Shown here: one piece after another, positions 6,837-43,845 of the stretch
How positions within the stretch are numbered: the stretch's first letter is position 1
Layout: each line of letters starts with the position of its first letter
Notes under the pieces: model-generated
Seen by the model: only the letters and a program-made list of their open reading frames with translations
Told to the model about the DNA's origin: nothing
The model's database searches: none
Program-made: the position numbers and the translations under genes
Sequence record: NC_054895.1
Strand: one strand, 5' to 3'
DNA length: 48,466 nt
Source of the DNA: Escherichia phage vB_Eco_SLUR29

Positions 6837-7105
6837 TTTGTCTCGACGGTCATATGTTCTGTCTTCGTGCCTTTGCCATTGCTTTTCGACACTTCCCAGC
6901 TAGTAGCGCCCTTGCAGTTGGTGAAGTAAACAGTGCGATCGTCATAGAATCGGTAAACGGTGCAACCGTCAGCGGTGAATAGCTCCCTTACGCTGTAGTC
7001 ATCGCCAGGGTTAGCCATCTGCACATTGCCAACATGCGCGCCATCTTCTTTGCATCCGGTCAGGAATGCCATTGCCGCCAAAACGCTGATTAATGCCTTT
7101 TTCAT
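6833..7105 (-). CDS. lipoprotein (lipobox LTGC)
   Basis: signal peptide plus LTGC lipobox; 90 aa; AGAGGA SD. Confidence 0.55.
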   Translation of the reverse strand: MKKALISVLAAMAFLTGCKEDGAHVGNVQMANPGDDYSVRELFTADGCTVYRFYDDRTVYFTNCKGATSWEVSKSNGKGTKTEHMTVETK

Positions 7106-7569
7106 TGCTCTTCCTCTTTGATGATTTCGCGGATCATATCCTGGTAGCGGCTTACGCCCTCACAAGCTCCAGCCAGTTTATCCCCTTCCAGGTCAACGAT
7201 ATTCGGGATTGCTGCCAGTATGCGATCGGCAAACTTTTTGATCGCCCTTGCCTTGATGGCTGGCAATTCTTCGGGTGTGATGATTTTCCTTTTCGATTCG
7301 CGGACCATGCGGAAAACGTAAAATTTATCATCTTCCGTTTCCTCTACCTTGATGCTTACCCGACCTGCGGCCATTACTTCTGGAACGCGGTTGATAATGG
7401 TCCGGCTGTAGGATGAACTGCGCGTGATCTTGTAGCAGTCGTCACCGCTTAACATTCCGGCCAGGTCAATTAGTGACATTTTATACTCTTCAATATCGCC
7501 ACTAGCCAGGCGGCGACCAAGCTCGCGAAGCCAATCGCAATAGTCCTTAGTGGTCTTCTGTTCCATTTC
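7102..7569 (-). CDS. hypothetical protein (155 aa, MEQKTTKDY...)
   Basis: first gene of leftward early operon; GGAGGAAAGG SD; consensus sigma70 promoter immediately upstream. Confidence 0.55.
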   Translation of the reverse strand, partial: EMEQKTTKDYCDWLRELGRRLASGDIEEYKMSLIDLAGMLSGDDCYKITRSSSYSRTIINRVPEVMAAGRVSIKVEETEDDKFYVFRMVRESKRKIITPEELPAIKARAIKKFADRILAAIPNIVDLEGDKLAGACEGVSRYQDMIREIIKEEEQ

Positions 7570-7597
7570 CTTTCCTCCAGTTGTTGACTGTTGGCGC

Positions 7598-7625
7598 ATT
7601 ATAAAAGCTATTTGGTGCGTGTCAA
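7598..7625 (-). promoter_or_regulatory. sigma70-type promoter (TTGACA-16-TATAAT) for leftward early operon
   Basis: minus-strand TTGACA at 7625..7620 and TATAAT at 7603..7598 with 16-nt spacer, about 30 nt upstream of ATG 7569. Confidence 0.6.
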
Positions 7626-7708
7626 TGTTTTTGTTGTATTCAAAACGTTACCAATATCGAAAAACTACAAAATCATGCGCAAGTTATTGATTTCGCGGCT
7701 GTTATTTT

Positions 7709-7910
7709 TCTGTTCACTCTGTTAACGCAATCCGCCGGAAAAAGTATATATACATATGCAATCCGCCGCGCGCGCAACTATCCATATATACCCACACACA
7801 ACCACACCATAACCAACAAAAAGCACTGTAACAGTGAGAACAAAAAGAAAACATTATAGATATATATAAATAAATAATCTTTATTTTCAATGTATTATAG
7901 AGGATTTTCT
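7709..7910. repeat. non-coding module R1 (paralogous to 28996..29200)
   Basis: shared ordered blocks GTTATTTTTCT, CGCCGG, TATATACATA, ACAACCACA, AAATAAATAA with the second divergent control region. Confidence 0.5.
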
Positions 7911-8059
7911 TTGTTTTTTCCGTTTTCGCTACACCGGAAAACCGCGCGGAAACACGCCGCCTGAAATCGGTAACAGGGGTGAACAAAAGACAACAACCAC
8001 TGACAGCCAGGCGGAAAAGTGAGGCAAGAGGGGAAGGTTTCACTATCTCCCCTGCAACC

Positions 8060-8157
8060 AATGATTAAACGTGATTACTTTTCTCATCAAATTTGCAAAG
8101 GCAATCATCATTTTGACGTGATTTGATTACGAATGATTACTTTTGATTATTTCGATC
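8060..8157. repeat. helically phased GATTA(C) direct repeats (iteron-like)
   Basis: five or more GATTA(A/C/T) copies at about 10-bp phasing (near 8063, 8073, 8128, 8138, 8147). Confidence 0.4.
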
Positions 8158-8180
8158 GCAATCCTGGCGATAACCGTCAA

Positions 8181-8199
8181 ATAGCACTTTTTGTTAAAA
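8181..8199 (+). promoter_or_regulatory. conserved 19-bp early element ATAGCACTTTTTGTTAAAA, copy 1 (PeSL-like)
   Basis: exact 19-mer; -10-like TACATT 22 nt after TTGTTA; CATCGAAACGAAC leader; precedes gene 8265. Confidence 0.6.
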
Positions 8200-8264
8200 C
8201 TCAGGCCACCTGATCGGGTACATTACACACATCGAAACGAACCGCACTTACTGAGGACCAAACA

Positions 8265-8567
8265 ATGATTAACATGAACCTGTTCACCGCTAAAGACCAC
8301 GAGAATATGGCAGCACTGGCTGACCTGTTCGAAACAGCAGAAATGGCTGAACTGTTCATGACTGAGCATGAATTCCAGGACGGCATCAGCAATGCCATTG
8401 AAACAAATTTTGGCGACGCTCGCGTTACTGGTGCAATGTTTGCAAATATCGCGCGTAAATTCTTCCAGGCTTACCGCGACGCTCGCCATGTAAAGGGCAC
8501 GTTTGGATCTGCGAAAGACACCGCTGAAACTATCCGCGCTTACATTGAGCGCCACGCAAAACAATAA
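8265..8567 (+). CDS. hypothetical early protein (100 aa)
   Basis: ORF with GAGGA SD; TAA stop abuts next 19-mer element. Confidence 0.6.
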   Translation: MINMNLFTAKDHENMAALADLFETAEMAELFMTEHEFQDGISNAIETNFGDARVTGAMFANIARKFFQAYRDARHVKGTFGSAKDTAETIRAYIERHAKQ

Positions 8568-8586
8568 ATAGCACTTTTTGTTAAAA
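8568..8586 (+). promoter_or_regulatory. conserved 19-bp early element, copy 2, with stem-loop GGGATAAC/GTTATCCC
   Basis: exact 19-mer; inverted repeat with TGGTATAGT (extended -10-like) in loop; CATCGAAACGAAC leader. Confidence 0.6.
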
Positions 8587-8646
8587 GCTGATCGGGATAA
8601 CCTGGTATAGTTATCCCATCGAAACGAACCGCTCAGGAGATAGTAA

Positions 8647-8919
8647 ATGAACATCAGCAAAACCACTTTCAGTTTCGCTAAGCGTCACGGTCTGGATCTG
8701 ACTGTTGAAGATTTTGGCGATGTTCTGCAACTCTGCATTTGGGAAGCAGATAACGATTGCGAGTGGCTTTGCTCTTATCGTATCAACTACGATTGCTTGA
8801 CCTGGCACGGCAATATCTATCTGCCGCAAGAAGTGAAAGAAGAGTTGCCAGCGACTATCAACAACGAGGTTTTCTTGCGCCAGGTGCTGAAATTTATCAG
8901 CAAGGAGATCAAGAAGTAA
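8647..8919 (+). CDS. hypothetical early protein (90 aa)
   Basis: ORF with AGGAGA SD. Confidence 0.6.
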   Translation: MNISKTTFSFAKRHGLDLTVEDFGDVLQLCIWEADNDCEWLCSYRINYDCLTWHGNIYLPQEVKEELPATINNEVFLRQVLKFISKEIKK

Positions 8920-9891: not shown

Positions 9892-9947
9892 ACGATGCGC
9901 TGCTGATTGGTATAGTAAGCGCATCGACAACAAACGAGGATTTAAAG

Positions 9948-10145
9948 ATGGAAAATCAGGTTGATGTTAAAGTTGTTAAGCGCGACAAGTCTCACGAAAA
10001 AGGTTTGTTTAAGAAAGGTGCTGAAATCACCATTGACCTTGATGATATGGAGGCGTACCACTCAGGGCTAACTTGGAACGTTCGCAAATGTGAAAACGGC
10101 CTGTTCAAGTTAAATGGCTTTGAAACATACATGGAGATCATTTAA
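9948..10145 (+). CDS. hypothetical protein (65 aa)
   Basis: ORF with GAGGA SD. Confidence 0.55.
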   Translation: MENQVDVKVVKRDKSHEKGLFKKGAEITIDLDDMEAYHSGLTWNVRKCENGLFKLNGFETYMEII

Positions 10146-14926: not shown

Positions 14927-14988
14927 CGCCCGGCCTAGTGTCGGGTATATTTGTTTCATCGAAACGAAACAACCAAAAAGGAAAAATT

Positions 14989-19634: not shown

Positions 19635-21631
19635 TAAACAAACTCCCGTTTTGCAATGTTATCCTCACCTTTGCCGTTTTTGCGATGCGTTACGCGTACA
19701 GGCGGCATGATGTGATGAGCGTATGACATTATTTTACGCGCATTTCTATAGCTCGCCACCATACCAGCAATCTTGCGATCCGGTATGTGCTGCAATGCTA
19801 TTTTTCTCCATATCGTCCTGCAAATGTTGCTTTCTGACTCAGGGAAAAATCTTTCGTATGCCTTGAACGTGTCGCCGTTGGCCTCAAGCTCATAGCAAAA
19901 AATAATTCCTTTCTGGTTTTTCGTCATATCAACGCGGAAAGATTTAACGTTGCACCAATCGTTTTTGGTGTAGTGCTTACCGCTTAACTTCTCGTTAGGA
20001 TCGACAAGAGAAATATCGCAACAACGGCATACTCTCGCCACTACGTCGTTTTTTGTTCCGCAACCGCGCTTGATTATCTTTTTCGTTCTCGGATCTACCT
20101 GGTCCTCGCAAATTCTGTAAGTCCAAAAATGCTCACATCGCTTCCCGTTATCGTCTACGTGCATACATCGGCGAGCGTAAAAGCTGTTTAGCGTTCCACA
20201 TATCGGACAAGTCTTAGGCTCTTTCCCGTTTGTAAATCTCTTTTGGAATTGCGCTTGCTCAAGGATTGGATCGAAATACAAATCACCTAACTCATCCATA
20301 GTACCTGCAAAATCCAATACAAGATGATCTTTTTTCTTGAATCCCTGATCAATGTGCCATTGCTTAAGCAGTCGCATGCCGCGCCCCAAAAGCTGGATAA
20401 GCAATGTTAGAGATCCTATCTTTCTCAGTATTACCGAAGTATCCCAAAACGGAACGTTAACGCCAGTGGTAAGCGCCTGTACCTGGAAGATGTATTTTAC
20501 TTTTCCCTCGTATGCCTCCCTCAGCCACTCTTTACGCTGATTATCTCCAGTCTTGCCAGTTATGATCCTGTATTCAACGCCTGGCGGCAGTGCGGCGGCG
20601 GCCTCCTTGCAGTGCCTTTCCCCTGCGCATGTAACTAAAACTCCGTTCCTGTCTTTGCATATCTCATGGACTTTAGCCATGATTTTCTGTGTCATTGTTG
20701 CGTCTTGATGGATCTTTTCTTCCATCTTGCGCAATGTTTTAGCGTCAAAGTCTGAAACGCCATCCTCGCTACTGGCTTCGAACTCTGAAAGGTCATAACC
20801 CAGGTCGCCTACGTCGCCGAAGTTTGTTGGCACTACCGAACCGAATTTGATTAAGTAGTTTGTGTCTATGTTAGTCACCTGCTCACGCCAGAATCCCTTT
20901 TTGTTCTTATCTTCAACCAGTATTGGAACCACGCCGCGAAATTCAGATCCAGTCATACCGAATATTCGCAATTCGTGCCCGTATGCCTCGCGACACCTGC
21001 GCATCATTTCCATGATTATTACGGTGTACTGTGTGCGTCCTGTTCCGAACATTGGATCGCCATTGGAATCAAATTGCTGTTCTTCTCCAATCAGTACTGG
21101 CAAATCCTTCTTAGTGGTCATCTGCTGGTAAGATTCATTATTTTCTATCGCGTCCGCGAGATCCTCCCAATCCACCTGGTGACATTCATCAATACCGATA
21201 ACGTGCGGAACATAATCACCTAACGACTTAAACAATCCGTTTACTACAGTGCCCTCAGAACCGACCACGATCGGAAAGTATGCGCTTTTTGTTTTCAGTC
21301 CGGCGCAATAGATTGAGTTTGGCACTCCAAGATTGCTGATCTCTTCCGAATCCTGATCAACAATTTCAGCCTGGCGAGCAAGGACCATCATTTTCAATCC
21401 CATTTTTCGGCATTGCGCCGCAACCATCGCAAACATCAATGTTTTGCCAGCCGACACAGAAGCCTTAACAAAGAAAGGATGCTCATAGTTTTTCATGCGC
21501 TTTGCGATCTCGGCATACGCAACGCACTGATAAGGATAAGGCACTATATTGCCAACCGTGAATCGCTCTTGGATGCTTTTTATTACTGCCTCGCCTAACG
21601 CTGATATTTGTTTTTCGATATTTGGAATCAT
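19634..21631 (-). CDS. SF2 DNA helicase with C-terminal Zn-finger region
   Basis: Walker A SAGKT, DECH box, multiple CxxC pairs in C-terminal third. Confidence 0.8.
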   Translation of the reverse strand: MIPNIEKQISALGEAVIKSIQERFTVGNIVPYPYQCVAYAEIAKRMKNYEHPFFVKASVSAGKTLMFAMVAAQCRKMGLKMMVLARQAEIVDQDSEEISNLGVPNSIYCAGLKTKSAYFPIVVGSEGTVVNGLFKSLGDYVPHVIGIDECHQVDWEDLADAIENNESYQQMTTKKDLPVLIGEEQQFDSNGDPMFGTGRTQYTVIIMEMMRRCREAYGHELRIFGMTGSEFRGVVPILVEDKNKKGFWREQVTNIDTNYLIKFGSVVPTNFGDVGDLGYDLSEFEASSEDGVSDFDAKTLRKMEEKIHQDATMTQKIMAKVHEICKDRNGVLVTCAGERHCKEAAAALPPGVEYRIITGKTGDNQRKEWLREAYEGKVKYIFQVQALTTGVNVPFWDTSVILRKIGSLTLLIQLLGRGMRLLKQWHIDQGFKKKDHLVLDFAGTMDELGDLYFDPILEQAQFQKRFTNGKEPKTCPICGTLNSFYARRCMHVDDNGKRCEHFWTYRICEDQVDPRTKKIIKRGCGTKNDVVARVCRCCDISLVDPNEKLSGKHYTKNDWCNVKSFRVDMTKNQKGIIFCYELEANGDTFKAYERFFPESESNICRTIWRKIALQHIPDRKIAGMVASYRNARKIMSYAHHIMPPVRVTHRKNGKGEDNIAKREFV

Positions 21632-21639
21632 CTTAAACC

Positions 21640-21668
21640 TTTAAAAAATGCCATTTGGAGTATATAAT
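21640..21668 (+). promoter_or_regulatory. putative sigma70 promoter (TTTAAA-17-TATAAT) for rightward HTH/primase/fiber block
   Basis: hexamers at 21640..21645 and 21663..21668; overlaps face-to-face with minus-strand -10 of the helicase promoter. Confidence 0.4.
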
Positions 21669-21688
21669 AGACTCATTACAATAAACTG

Positions 21689-21707
21689 TTTTAACAAAAA
21701 ATGCTAT
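21689..21707 (-). promoter_or_regulatory. conserved early element, minus-strand copy driving helicase operon
   Basis: reverse complement ATAGCATTTTTTGTTAAAA; TATTAT 22 nt after TTGTTA; about 58 nt upstream of helicase ATG. Confidence 0.55.
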
Positions 21708-21718
21708 GAGGTGACTAG

Positions 21719-22195
21719 ATGAAAGATGCACGAATTGCGGTGTCTACGGGTGAGATCGACAAGCGCACTATTAACGGTAACAACGGAACGCGACGAGGTA
21801 AAGACAAAAAGCCACGAAAACACCGAACCGGATTTCTTATCCTGCGAGATGAGGTAAAAGCAAGCCTGAAATCTCGCTTGGATATTCTGATCGAGTATTA
21901 TGGCGGTGTTCCTGCTATGGCTCGACGTCTACGCGTATCTCAGCAAGTCGTTAACCAATGGCGAAAGCGTGGTATGATTTCAGCCGCTGGAGCACAAAAG
22001 GTGCATAACGACTACAAATATAATGGATGCAAAGGATACCGCGCATCATTTTGTCGTCCAGATCTGCGGTTTGATTCTAACGGTAAGCCTCTTACTACCC
22101 GTTGCGACAAATACGAGATGTTGCGCGTAGTCAAAAATTCAGACTACGAACCAGGCGGACGATTCTACAAAGGTGATAACAGCACAAATAGCTAA
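21719..22195 (+). CDS. HTH DNA-binding protein (Cro/YdaS-like)
   Basis: HTH-like GGVPAMARRLRVSQQVVNQWRKRG; GAGG SD. Confidence 0.6.
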   Translation: MKDARIAVSTGEIDKRTINGNNGTRRGKDKKPRKHRTGFLILRDEVKASLKSRLDILIEYYGGVPAMARRLRVSQQVVNQWRKRGMISAAGAQKVHNDYKYNGCKGYRASFCRPDLRFDSNGKPLTTRCDKYEMLRVVKNSDYEPGGRFYKGDNSTNS

Positions 22196-28856: not shown

Positions 28857-28886
28857 CTTTAATGCTCCTTGTTGCTTTATGCGTGC

Positions 28887-28914
28887 ATTGTAGCCATTTG
28901 GTTGATTTAGTCAA
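28887..28914 (-). promoter_or_regulatory. sigma70-type promoter (TTGACT-16-TACAAT) for recombination operon
   Basis: minus-strand hexamers at 28914..28909 and 28892..28887. Confidence 0.55.
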
Positions 28915-28995
28915 TAGTTGTTTTGTTTTTTCTGTTTTCTAAACGTTCTCAGATGGCAATAAAACAAATTTGACGCGTAAGTTAATGATTAATAT

Positions 28996-29200
28996 GTGTT
29001 ATTTTTCTTGTTCCCTTGTTCTCTCATATACGCCGGATTATATACATACACATGAATGATGGCGCATGCAGATACTCAGAAAGAAAAATCACCACAAACA
29101 ACCAAAACCACAAGAAACACAGATAACAAGAAAAAACAAATATACATACATAAATAAATAAACTATTGATTTTATATGTATATATCTATTTTATTGATTA
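28996..29200. repeat. non-coding module R2 (paralogous to 7709..7910)
   Basis: same ordered blocks as R1 (GTTATTTTTCT, CGCCGG, TATATACATA, ACAACCA, AAATAAATAA). Confidence 0.5.
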
Positions 29201-29283
29201 TTTATTGTTCTTATGTTGGCTAAAATTTGCGCTAAATTTACGCCGTCTTAAATTCGATAACACCGTAAAACAAAAAATAACAA

Positions 29284-29302
29284 GTAGCACTTTTTGCTAA
29301 AC
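29284..29302 (+). promoter_or_regulatory. degenerate copy of 19-mer element (GTAGCACTTTTTGCTAAAC) with -10-like TATAGT
   Basis: TATAGT 21 nt after TTGCTA; ACAACAACAAAGGAG leader; precedes lipoprotein gene. Confidence 0.45.
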
Positions 29303-29356
29303 GCGCGCCTTAAAATCGTGTATAGTTGAACCAACAACAACAAAGGAGATGAAAAG

Positions 29357-29584
29357 ATGAAAAAGTTAATTGCCGTTTTAATCGCAGCCGTTGCGCTGAC
29401 TGGTTGCGCAAATATGCCTAAACGTGAATGCACGGCTATTTATGAAAATAGCGGAATGCAGTATTCAGTTGCTATCTTTGGGGCAAAACGAGTTGGCGAC
29501 CGCACTCTTGTCAAGGCTGGCTATCCATTTAATTTTCAGTGGGTGAGCATTGATAACTTTAAAAACGCTGATTGCAGTCTGTAA
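29357..29584 (+). CDS. small lipoprotein (75 aa), candidate superinfection-exclusion (Cor-like) protein
   Basis: signal peptide plus LTGC lipobox; isolated gene next to tail module. Confidence 0.5.
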   Translation: MKKLIAVLIAAVALTGCANMPKRECTAIYENSGMQYSVAIFGAKRVGDRTLVKAGYPFNFQWVSIDNFKNADCSL

Positions 29585-39754: not shown

Positions 39755-40062
39755 ACCCGCTGCCCCGCAAGTGCTTTCATATAATGACCAGTCAGCGATA
39801 ATGACGCAGACGGGTAATAATCCAGCAATTTAGCAACGTTTTCCTCGTTAAATTCATCTTCCAGATCCCAACCGGAAGCAAGGAAGGTGATCATTTCTAC
39901 GTCGCTCATCGGCTTTTCTGCCGTGTATCGTTCGTGAATTTCGCTTGCCTTCTTGTGGCGCACGGTAAAAACAATAACTTGCTCATCACCATTTGGAAGC
40001 ACGAAAGAAACAGGCAGCTTAAAATCAGGCAGTGGGCCTAACGTTAGTTTCATCTTTGCCAT
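39745..40062 (-). CDS. tail assembly chaperone G-like
   Basis: 105 aa between major tail and tape measure genes; AAGGAG SD. Confidence 0.65.
   Translation of the reverse strand: MAKMKLTLGPLPDFKLPVSFVLPNGDEQVIVFTVRHKKASEIHERYTAEKPMSDVEMITFLASGWDLEDEFNEENVAKLLDYYPSASLSLTGHYMKALAGQRVKN
39748..39754 (-). other. putative -1 programmed ribosomal frameshift slippery heptamer A_AAA_AAC
   Basis: last codons of G are GTA AAA AAC TAA; X_XXY_YYZ pattern in frame; analogous to lambda G/G-T. Confidence 0.5.
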
Positions 40063-40076
40063 CTTAAGATCTCCTT

Positions 40077-40095
40077 ATAGCACTTTTTGTTAAAA
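40077..40095 (+). promoter_or_regulatory. exact 19-mer copy in plus orientation inside leftward structural operon
   Basis: ATAGCACTTTTTGTTAAAA; TAGATT 22 nt after TTGTTA; about 45 nt before terminator at 40141; its reverse complement abuts SD of G gene. Confidence 0.45.
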
Positions 40096-43826: not shown

Positions 43827-43845
43827 ATAGCACTTTTTGTTAAAC
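43827..43845 (+). promoter_or_regulatory. 19-mer copy (ATAGCACTTTTTGTTAAAC) in plus orientation inside structural operon
   Basis: 18/19 match; TATTAG 22 nt after TTGTTA. Confidence 0.4.

What the first reader, a model, noticed from the sequence alone, without database searches (positions are those of the whole stretch)
8060..8157. Helically phased GATTA(C) direct repeats immediately upstream of the first rightward early element
At least five GATTA(A/C/T) motifs occur with about 10-bp periodicity in two clusters (TGATTAAACGTGATTAC and TGATTTGATTACGAATGATTACTTTTGATTAT). Phased short direct repeats on one face of the helix are characteristic of iterons or operator arrays. A weaker version (TGATTTAG, AATGATTAAT) is present in the second divergent region near 28903-28996.
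Basis: seen in the sequence. Interest (0 to 1): 0.5.

Follow-up and report, generated by a model that had tools for sequence, protein, structure and literature searches.

The report
Phased TGATTA repeats: probable phage packaging site
Five same-strand TGATTA repeats, one per DNA helical turn, sit in the one non-coding stretch of this T1-like coliphage where relatives have their DNA-packaging start (pac) site, so they are most likely docking sites for the small terminase rather than a gene switch or replication origin.

Summary
TGATTA occurs on the + strand at 8062, 8072, 8124, 8134 and 8144, far beyond chance and all on one helical face. The segment is predicted to be among the most curved in the window.

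The window is Escherichia phage tunus (Drexlerviridae), collinear with T1 but flipped. The repeats lie 82-169 bp upstream of the first rightward promoter, inside a 185-bp block (7997-8180). That block is missing from the otherwise paralogous second divergent region.

This untranslated region is where the T1, TLS and SU57 genomes are linearised at their mapped or inferred pac ends. T1 and TLS position 1 fall inside equivalent AATCA/TGATT arrays. Three other records end 12-20 bp left of the first repeat.

Relatives with non-alignable cassettes still carry TGATT/AATCA clusters here, in varying number and orientation.

My best reading (about 0.5) is a pac recognition array for the P22-gp3-type small terminase. 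The array-versus-terminase covariation proved confounded by clade structure.

An operator, an upstream activator, or origin iterons remain possible. The claimed "weaker copy" at 28903-28996 is not homologous.

In passing: the family's unexplained 21-nt intergenic repeat perfectly matches the MarA/SoxS/Rob marbox in class II position.

The parts
8062..8078 (+). Repeat cluster 1: TGATTAA-acg-TGATTAC (copies at 8062 and 8072)
   Evidence: In Hanrivervirus relatives the homologous position carries TTAATCA-NN-TGATTAA followed 10 bp later by TGATCAA.
8119..8150 (+). Repeat cluster 2: TGATT-TGATTAC-gaa-TGATTAC-ttt-TGATTAT (copies at 8119, 8124, 8134, 8144). The 11-mer TGATTACTTTT occurs at both 8072 and 8134.
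   Evidence: The last copy lies 35 bp before the AAATAGCAC promoter element, the same offset (36 bp) as the single TGATTA in type-B cassettes.
8099..8115 (+). Central spacer element AGGCAATCATCATTTTG. It contains the one inverted AATCA and an IHF-consensus-like site with one mismatch. It resembles the GCAAYAATCA motif that T1 position 1 splits.
   Evidence: The IHF-like match is at chance frequency in the window (72 found, 72 expected), so it is only a lead.
7997..8180 (.). Block of 185 bp specific to this divergent region. It holds a purine-rich tract, a conserved tttcact-atc-tcccc motif and the TGATTA array, and it is absent from the paralogous region at 28870-29360. It is the candidate pac region.
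   Evidence: Alignment A1. A conserved CCAGG...tttcNcNat..cccc motif precedes the array in cassette types A-E.
8044..8055 (.). Positions equivalent to the record termini of related phages. XY3 is exactly at 8044|8045, G29-2 at the homologous position, and haarsle at the equivalent of 8054|8055.
   Evidence: Whether these are physical DNA ends is inferred, not shown.
8181..8224 (+). First rightward promoter: 21-nt family repeat/marbox-like element ATAGCACTTTTTGTTAAAAC (8181-8200), an 18-bp gap, then a -10-like TACATT (8219-8224). The predicted start is near 8231.
   Evidence: The repeat is described as of unknown function in TLS (PMC11447400).
1572..2096 (-). Small terminase gene (P22 gp3 family), the proposed reader of the array.
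   Evidence: Pfam PF16677 at 3.8e-11; PDB 3P9A at 1.7e-15; T1 ST54 54% identical. The segment VTEAAVSKW (residues 89-97) is the most variable between cassette types.
8265..8567 (+). First rightward gene (phrog_12926, unknown function), downstream of the array and promoter.

Best explanation
The TGATTA array is the recognition part of the phage's pac site, the place where DNA packaging starts.

Proposed mechanism (all of this paragraph is inferred). Late in infection, the ring-shaped small terminase (P22 gp3 family, gene at 1572-2096 on the - strand) binds the phased TGATT(A) motifs. These present one contact per helical turn on one face of an intrinsically curved segment of about 90 bp, so the DNA can wrap on the oligomer. 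The large terminase then makes the first cut a few tens of bp away, probably near 8044-8055 or in the 8100-8110 spacer. Headful packaging runs leftward in window coordinates, towards the small-ORF cluster and the terminase genes.

Shown here:
- The repeats are real and in helical phase.
- The array is unique in the genome.
- It lies in the untranslated region that carries the mapped or inferred pac end in T1, TLS and SU57.
- The motif recurs in relatives.
- The segment is predicted to be strongly curved.

Not shown: that the small terminase is the binder, where the cut falls, or the DNA-wrapping geometry.
For: 1. Identity and synteny. The window is Escherichia phage tunus. It is collinear with T1 but flipped, so 7600-8265 corresponds to the T1 untranslated region between ST1 and ST77.

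2. Record starts in T1, TLS and SU57.
- The T1 record starts in that region and is annotated with a 2.8-kb terminal repeat from position 1.
- The TLS record also starts there. Its pac end was mapped by restriction digests (PMC11447400).
- SU57 was opened there at a PhageTerm end with an abrupt coverage change. Its authors state that the pac of T1 and T1-likes lies in this region (PMC7718038).

3. Ends fall in or beside the arrays.
- In window orientation, T1 position 1 and TLS position 1 fall inside AATCA/TGATT repeat arrays directly upstream of the first promoter of the ST1-side operon. That is the positional equivalent of 8062-8149.
- The records of XY3, G29-2 and haarsle end 17, 20 and 12 bp left of the first TGATTA/TAATCA.

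4. Elimination. The rest of the untranslated region (7580-7997) has a paralogue at 28870-29360. Only the 185-bp block carrying the array is unique.

5. Motif recurrence. AATCA/TGATT is the most enriched 5-mer (30 observed against 6.3 expected) upstream of this promoter across seven non-alignable cassette types. Orientation and number vary.

6. Small terminase divergence. It diverges more than its neighbours when the cassette type changes.
- tunus against MatMar: small terminase 66%, large terminase 90%, genes right of the array 94-100%.
- tunus against haarsle: small terminase 74%, large terminase 92%.
- The most variable small terminase segment aligns with P22 gp3 residues 78-86.

7. Curvature. 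Predicted curvature is in the top 0.1% of the window, and A/T-tract phasing is in the top 0.3-1%.

8. Precedent. The P1 pac site has two clusters of TGATCA/G hexamers (HEX4 and HEX3) with an IHF site and the cleavage site (PMC10028697).
Against: - No experiment on this phage. The termini of XY3, G29-2 and haarsle may be assembly or curation choices.
- The nucleotide-level start of TLS was chosen by resemblance to the P22 pac. I suspect the same for T1. So 'inside the array' is accurate only to roughly 100 bp.
- The covariation test is confounded. The 59 records with this array are exactly the 59 with small terminase at least 98% identical. But the HTH regulator is at least 99% identical in 59 records too, so these records are simply one clade.
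- Small terminase divergence between types is not an outlier among all genes: about 20-28% of shared genes are as divergent or more.
- The array is also suitably placed to act on the adjacent promoter.
- In type-B cassettes the distal TGATTA is not in helical phase with the proximal ones (69 bp apart).
Confidence: 0.5

Rival explanations
1. Upstream regulatory array for the first rightward early promoter. A DNA-binding protein occupies the phased sites at -82 to -169 and activates or represses the promoter at 8181-8224. Candidates are the phage Cro/YdaS-like HTH regulator at 21719-22195, another small early protein, or a host response regulator that reads 10-bp direct repeats. Alternatively the intrinsic bend alone stimulates RNA polymerase.
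For: - Position immediately upstream of the promoter.
- The last TGATTA keeps a constant 35-36 bp offset from the promoter element in type A and type B cassettes.
- Strong predicted curvature.
- The HTH regulator (phrog_2856 at 1.6e-72, weak P22_Cro/YdaS Pfam hits) is at least 99% identical in 59 records, the same number as carry the array.
- TGATTACTTTTGATTA resembles OmpR-type tandem half-sites. This rests on my memory only and was not tested.
Against: - Fourteen other copies of the same promoter type lack any such array.
- The paralogous second divergent region lacks it.
- No site overlaps the -35/-10 region.
- No TGATTA cluster lies at the regulator's own promoter.
- Motif orientation flips relative to the promoter in T1, TLS and Samwise. 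That is unusual for a positioned activator site.
- The immediate neighbours (DUF7174 and phrog_6147) do not co-vary with cassette type.
Confidence: 0.22
2. Iterons of the phage replication origin. A phage initiator (unknown) or the primase/helicase binds the repeats, and a nearby AT-rich stretch (7855-7905) melts.
For: - Direct repeats next to an AT-rich core that is conserved across Tempevirinae.
- The origin of T1-like phages is unknown, and no lambda-like iterons were found elsewhere in TLS (PMC11447400).
- Divergent transcription at this point could activate an origin.
Against: - The AT-rich core is duplicated in the second divergent region, which has no repeats.
- The repeat core is only 6-7 bp.
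- The array is about 160 bp from the AT-rich core, with a G-rich tract between them.
- No initiator-like protein was recognised among ten flanking proteins.
- Physical genome ends, not replication features, map here in relatives.
Confidence: 0.08
3. No sequence-specific reader. The array is a by-product of selection for phased T-tracts (intrinsically bent DNA, or a nucleoid-protein target such as H-NS or Fis), or of local slippage and duplication of a 10-bp unit.
For: - The T-tracts that follow each TGATTAC are themselves phased.
- Tandem 5- and 10-bp AATCN units in Samwise, Punny and TLS look like slippage products.
Against: - The specific pentamer TGATT/AATCA, not just A/T richness, recurs in seven unrelated cassette types. 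In types B and C it appears as inverted repeats with a variable centre, which is the signature of a protein site.
- The 126-bp array region is 97.6-100% identical in all 59 carriers, while sequence further left in the same untranslated region is replaced in part of the clade.
Confidence: 0.1

Closest known systems
Bacteriophage P1 pac site (HEX4/HEX3 TGATCA/G hexamers, IHF site, PacA/PacB)
   Same: Two clusters of a short hexamer (2 + 3-4 here, 4 + 3 in P1) flank a spacer within about 90-160 bp. The motif differs by one base (TGATTA against TGATCA). Tlsvirus relatives even carry three TGATC(A/G) hexamers beside their AATCA repeats. The phage encodes a Dam methylase. P1 description: PMC10028697.
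   Different: The tunus hexamers contain no GATC, so methylation control cannot act on them. The terminase here is P22-gp3-like, not PacA/PacB. The IHF-like site is no better than chance. The site is intergenic, about 6 kb from the small terminase gene, whereas P1 pac lies inside pacA.
pac assignments in T1 and TLS (Drexlerviridae)
   Same: Same untranslated region and same side of it. T1 and TLS position 1 lie inside AATCA/TGATT arrays homologous in position to 8062-8149.
   Different: The TLS authors named a single P22-like hexamer (AGATTT) as pac by resemblance. Neither paper in the held library describes phased repeats. In T1, TLS and Samwise the motif is on the opposite strand.
Phage P22 pac and gp3 small terminase
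   Same: The small terminase is of the same protein family (PF16677; PDB 3P9A nonamer). Both use headful packaging with terminal redundancy.
   Different: From the TLS paper, P22 pac is a single asymmetric sequence of about 22 bp. From my own knowledge, it lies inside gene 3. Here the candidate is a repeated motif array in a distant intergenic region.
Lambda cosB (R3-I1-R2-R1) and SPP1 pacL/pacR (from my own knowledge, not checked here)
   Same: Several small-terminase binding boxes are arranged on bent DNA next to the cut site, with a bend between the boxes.
   Different: The terminase families differ, the boxes are longer, and lambda uses cos ends rather than headful packaging.
Plasmid and phage origin iterons; operator arrays of phage repressors
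   Same: Clustered direct repeats in a non-coding control region.
   Different: The unit is much shorter. There is no cognate initiator or repressor gene next to it, no overlap with a core promoter, and the array is absent from the paralogous control region.

Membership tests
pac site of a headful-packaging phage | The first-headful DNA end maps at or next to the element | tested here: inconclusive
   This holds by homology only. The T1, TLS and SU57 records start in the equivalent segment. The XY3, G29-2 and haarsle records end 12-20 bp from the array. There are no end-mapping data for tunus itself.
pac site of a headful-packaging phage | Single copy in the genome | tested here: met
   This is the only dense TGATT/AATCA cluster in the window. 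The 185-bp block is absent from the paralogous second divergent region.
pac site of a headful-packaging phage | Specifically bound by the small terminase and required for packaging initiation | not testable with these tools
   The evidence is indirect only. Small terminase is more diverged than large terminase between cassette types. The 59/59 set match is confounded by clade structure.
P1-type pac (Dam-regulated TGATCA/G hexamers) | Hexamers contain GATC and are read by PacA/PacB | tested here: not met
   TGATTA has no GATC. The only GATC sites in the untranslated region are at 8154 and 8212. The terminase is of the gp3 family.
P1-type pac (Dam-regulated TGATCA/G hexamers) | Two hexamer clusters with an IHF site between them | tested here: inconclusive
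   The two clusters are present. The IHF-like site at 8103-8115 has one mismatch, and such matches occur at the chance rate.
Replication-origin iterons | Repeats of about 17-22 bp next to an AT-rich unwinding element, with a cognate initiator gene | tested here: not met
   The core is 6-7 bp on a 10-bp period. The AT-rich core is about 160 bp away and is duplicated elsewhere without repeats. No initiator was recognised in ten flanking proteins.
Operator array of a phage HTH regulator | Sites overlap or abut the core promoter and recur at the regulator's own promoter | tested here: not met
   The array spans -82 to -169. There is no TGATTA cluster near 21600-21720. Binding itself was not testable.
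Upstream curved-DNA activator / UP element | Intrinsic bend or A/T-rich element upstream of the promoter | tested here: inconclusive
   Predicted curvature is in the top 0.1% (wedge parameters recalled from memory, with a parameter-free tract-phasing check in the top 0.3-1%). The position is too far upstream for a UP element. Any effect on transcription is untested.

The most novel reading that the evidence does not exclude
The array would be the first sequence-defined pac recognition module of the Drexlerviridae: a ring-shaped gp3-type small terminase reading one TGATT(A) motif per helical turn on a pre-bent 90-bp wrap. The repeat cassette and the small terminase recognition segment (residues 89-97) would be swapped together between phage lineages. 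Because the array abuts a marbox-type early promoter, terminase loading could at the same time shut off that operon late in infection.
Probability: 0.3. Interest if true: 0.6.

Novelty: new member of a known kind. Interest (0 to 1): 0.42.

Why it matters
T1-like phages are notorious laboratory and fermentation contaminants, are generalised transducers, and are being developed for therapy. Yet their pac site has been placed only roughly and named by resemblance to P22.

A defined repeat array co-occurring with a terminase type would provide:
- a testable packaging signal,
- a rational way to open and compare Drexlerviridae genomes,
- a handle for building or preventing transducing particles,
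- a natural system for studying how a gp3-type small terminase ring reads DNA.

If the array turns out to be regulatory instead, it marks the only specially controlled copy among about 15 otherwise uniform promoters.

Tried and rejected
- Pattern scans of IMG/VR with TGATTA-N4-TGATTA-N4-TGATTA and with an AT-rich 15-mer returned only unrelated low-complexity hits. A promoter-specific 27-mer found just four contigs.
- The Rfam scan of the whole window gave no family.
- I looked for a co-varying neighbour gene. DUF7174 (7102-7566) is 30% identical in atuna, which has the same array. phrog_6147 (8647-8919) is 94-98% identical across cassette types A, B and C. Neither is the specificity partner.
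- The covariation of array type with small terminase type first looked perfect: 59 against 59 records, and 64 against 63 for the second type. The control with the HTH regulator also gave 59 records at 99% or more, and large terminase gave 53. The match therefore reflects a clade and is not specific evidence.
- An IHF site between the clusters is at chance level.
- A contig-end survey through exact-protein look-up gave only two uninformative places.
- Resemblances to OmpR (TTTACTTTTG), CpxR (GTAAA-N5-GTAAA) and Fur boxes came from memory. They do not fit the AATCA repeats of other genera, so I did not pursue them.
- The T1 genome paper is not in the held library.

Full report
**Observation**

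TGATTAAACGTGATTAC lies at 8062-8078 and TGATTTGATTACGAATGATTACTTTTGATTAT at 8119-8150. TGATTA occurs on the + strand at 8062, 8072, 8124, 8134 and 8144, and never on the - strand within 8050-8160. There is an additional TGATT at 8119 and one inverted AATCA at 8103.

In 300 first-order Markov simulations, no sequence had more than three same-strand copies in 100 bp. Pairs at exactly 10 bp averaged about 0.02, against three observed. The stretch is the densest TGATT/AATCA cluster in the window, with 7 sites against a next best of 4. With 10.4 bp per turn, all five copies lie within 1.2 bp of one face.

**Context**

The window is Escherichia phage tunus (Drexlerviridae, Tempevirinae, Warwickvirus), 99.8% identical over the region.

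The array lies in a non-coding stretch of about 660 bp between divergent gene clusters.
- On the left is a perfect sigma-70 consensus promoter (TTGACA-16-TATAAT, 7625..7598, - strand). It drives a cluster that begins with a DUF7174 protein and ends with the terminase genes.
- On the right is a promoter built on the family's conserved repeat, AATAGCACTTTTTGTTAAAA at 8179-8199. A -10-like TACATT follows at 8219-8224, then the first rightward gene at 8265.
- The array therefore spans about -82 to -169 relative to the predicted start.

About 15 copies of that promoter type exist in the window, and none of the others has such an array.

The second divergent region (28870-29360) is a clear paralogue of 7580-7997. 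It has the same leftward promoter, CA-rich tract, AT-rich core and rightward promoter element. It lacks the 185-bp block 7997-8180, which carries a purine-rich tract, a conserved tttcact-atc-tcccc motif and the array.

**Relatives**

Fifty-nine phage records carry the array region at 97.6-100% identity. Elsewhere in the subfamily, the sequence between the conserved tttcNcNat..cccc motif and the promoter is replaced by non-alignable cassettes.
- Hanrivervirus: TTAATCA-NN-TGATTAA with a variable centre, TGATCAA 10 bp further on, and a distal TGATTA inside a GGAATA palindrome.
- MatMar and WaterSpirit: TGATTAATCA.
- Tlsvirus and Samwise: runs of TAATCAAATC units on the other strand.
- T1: TGATTG/AATCA repeats and, near the opposite promoter, three tandem GATTAAC.

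Across seven cassette types, AATCA/TGATT is the most enriched pentamer (30 observed, 6.3 expected) and TAATCA/TGATTA the most enriched hexamer. A short motif kept through turnover of number, spacing and orientation is the behaviour of a protein-binding site cluster. It is not the behaviour of a coding or RNA element. Rfam finds nothing in the window.

**What the region is known for**

A protein comparison shows the window is collinear with T1 but flipped. So 7600-8265 corresponds to the T1 untranslated region between ST1 and ST77.
- The T1 reference record is linearised in that region and annotates a 2.8-kb terminal repeat from position 1.
- The TLS record is linearised there too. Its authors mapped the pac end by restriction digestion and then chose the exact base by resemblance to the P22 pac.
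- SU57 was opened there at a PhageTerm end with an abrupt coverage change. Its authors state that the pac site of T1 and other T1-like phages lies in this region.

In window orientation, T1 position 1 and TLS position 1 both fall inside the AATCA/TGATT arrays just upstream of the first promoter of the ST1-side operon. This is the positional equivalent of 8062-8149.

Three further records from different laboratories end just left of the first repeat. XY3 ends at window 8044|8045, G29-2 at the homologous base, and haarsle 10 bp further right. The junctions are seamless circular ones.

These phages use a pac site, and the rest of the untranslated region is duplicated elsewhere in the genome. The unique 185-bp block is therefore the natural candidate for pac, and the array makes up half of it.

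**The proposed reader**

The small terminase (1572-2096, - strand) belongs to the P22 gp3 family (Pfam PF16677; PDB 3P9A, a nine-chain entry).

When the cassette type changes, the small terminase changes more than its neighbours.
- tunus against MatMar: small terminase 66%, large terminase 90%. The six genes right of the array are 94-100% identical, yet the array itself is replaced.
- tunus against haarsle: small terminase 74%, large terminase 92%.

The most variable small terminase segment between types is VTEAAVSKW / LSASVLEKW / ISDSNIQRL / FSGTALAKW / ASEAAIIKW. It aligns with P22 gp3 residues 78-86. From memory, that is where pac-specificity (high-transduction) mutations map. I did not verify this.

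**A control that weakens one argument**

The 59 records with the array are exactly the 59 with small terminase at least 98% identical, with nothing between 98% and 72%. The second cassette type gives 64 against 63 records.

However, the HTH regulator is also at least 99% identical in 59 records, and large terminase in 53. The concordance therefore reflects a tight clade and does not single out the terminase.

Within that clade there is recombination immediately left of the array. DUF7174 is at least 95% identical in only 43 records, and atuna's copy is 30% identical. The right-hand neighbour is conserved across cassette types. Neither immediate neighbour is the partner.

**Physical properties**

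A wedge-model calculation puts 8060-8160 in the top 0.1% of predicted curvature in the window: about 75 degrees over 60 bp, against a mean of 25 degrees. The parameters were recalled from memory. A parameter-free measure of A/T-tract phasing puts it in the top 0.3-1%. Bent DNA suits wrapping on a terminase ring, but it equally suits upstream activation of a promoter.

An IHF-like site lies between the clusters (AATCATCATTTTG, 8103-8115). It has one mismatch, and such matches occur at exactly the chance rate.

**Verdict on mechanism**

I put about 0.5 on the array being the small terminase recognition part of pac. The analogy is with P1 pac, which has two clusters of TGATCA/G hexamers with an IHF site and the cut site. 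It is not a member of that system: there is no GATC in the hexamers and the terminase family is different.

The remaining probability is spread as follows.
- About 0.22 on an upstream regulatory array for the adjacent promoter.
- About 0.08 on origin iterons.
- About 0.1 on a structural or slippage by-product with no specific reader.
- The rest is unassigned.

These are not fully exclusive. A terminase-bound array next to an early promoter could also silence it.

**Novelty**

The pac site of T1-like phages is already placed in this untranslated region. What is new is a concrete, phased, lineage-specific repeat array as the candidate signal. That makes it a new member of a known kind.

**In passing**

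The family's '21-base intergenic repeat' is listed as an open question in the 2024 TLS paper. It matches the MarA/SoxS/Rob marbox as defined in PMC12052159 (gcannwwntgnnaaa) perfectly in 15 copies, against 1.5 expected. Thirteen of these are oriented with the flanking genes (the two in the late region, 40080 and 43830, are not) and are followed by a -10-like hexamer 20 bp further on in most copies (21 bp in the 29287 copy). That places the centre of the box near -40, in the forward orientation, which is that paper's class II position. I found no paper in the held library linking marboxes to these phages. This may deserve more attention than the original finding.

Noticed in passing
window 8181-8200 and 14 other copies (4219-, 5513-, 6833-, 8571+, 9876+, 12075+, 12749+, 14911+, 18166-, 19215-, 21704-, 29287+, 40080+, 43830+): The T1-family '21-base intergenic repeat' (function called unknown in PMC11447400) matches the MarA/SoxS/Rob marbox definition gcannwwntgnnaaa perfectly: 15 copies against 1.5 expected. 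In most copies a -10-like hexamer follows 20 bp after the 15-mer (21 bp in the 29287 copy). That puts the centre of the box near -40 in forward orientation, the class II geometry. It suggests host Rob/MarA/SoxS, or a mimic, drives or boosts these promoters.
   Followed up: partly
window 7580-7997 versus 28870-29360: The two divergent control regions are paralogues over about 420 bp. They share the leftward consensus promoter, a T-rich tract, TATATACAT, a CA-rich tract, an AT-rich core and the rightward promoter element. The function of the shared module is unknown (two origins? divergent early promoters?).
   Followed up: partly
window 7855-7905: The AT-rich core atatatataaataaataatctttattttcaatgtattatagagg is conserved in every Tempevirinae genus examined and, in altered form, in T1 and SU57. 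It could be a DNA-unwinding element or a binding platform.
   Followed up: no
window, between each marbox-like element and its -10 (for example 8586-8612, 9892-9925, 14927-14945): Each promoter copy carries a different small G+C-rich hairpin in the spacer or around the -10 hexamer. The stems differ in sequence between copies but keep pairing potential. Read on the opposite strand, each hairpin followed by TTTTAACAAAAAG looks like an intrinsic terminator.
   Followed up: no
window 40080-40094 (+) and 43830-43844 (+): Two marbox-like elements in the late (structural) region point away from the - strand genes they abut. One sits directly upstream of the ribosome-binding site of the gene that starts at 40062.
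   Followed up: no
window 7709-7726: A direct 9-bp repeat, TCTGTTCAC / TCTGTTAAC, is conserved in MatMar, PaulSarasin and others and resembles response-regulator half-sites. A perfect IHF consensus (AATCAATAACTTG) lies nearby at 7680-7692 on the - strand.
   Followed up: no
L124, L246-L248, L254, L257 (type B) and L122, L250 (type C), 40-80 bp upstream of the promoter element: Where tunus has repeat cluster 2, other genera have a large palindrome of TTATTCC / GGAATAA units (two on each side), centred on TGATTAA or on an unrelated 9-mer. This suggests interchangeable binding modules.
   Followed up: no
L256 (T1) position 1 and 48800-48836; L125 (PaulSarasin); L251 (PMBT35); L263 (SU57): The motif GCAAC-AATCA(C) recurs in T1 (twice, 30 bp apart, and T1 position 1 splits one copy), PaulSarasin, PMBT35 and SU57. 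The closest tunus match is GGCAATCATCA at 8100-8110, between the two TGATTA clusters. It may be the conserved core of pac.
   Followed up: partly
window 9948-10145 (+): A 65-aa early protein matches Pfam PF25180, 'Phage antiviral trigger protein Gp54' (1.7e-38).
   Followed up: no
phage database records MG0656xx: About 20 records named 'Campylobacter phage' carry the Hanrivervirus cassette and small terminase at 92-100% identity to coliphages. They are probably mislabelled or contaminant T1-like coliphages.
   Followed up: no
window 23429/23441 (+) and 37152/37164 (-): Two further TGATTA pairs at 12-bp spacing lie inside coding regions (a tail fibre homologue and the tape-measure gene). I did not examine them.
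   Followed up: no
whole window: GATC occurs 302 times in 48.5 kb, about 1 per 160 bp and more than the 1 per 256 bp expected for a random tetramer. This fits the phage-encoded Dam methylase, but GATC is not concentrated at the array (sites only at 8154 and 8212).
   Followed up: no
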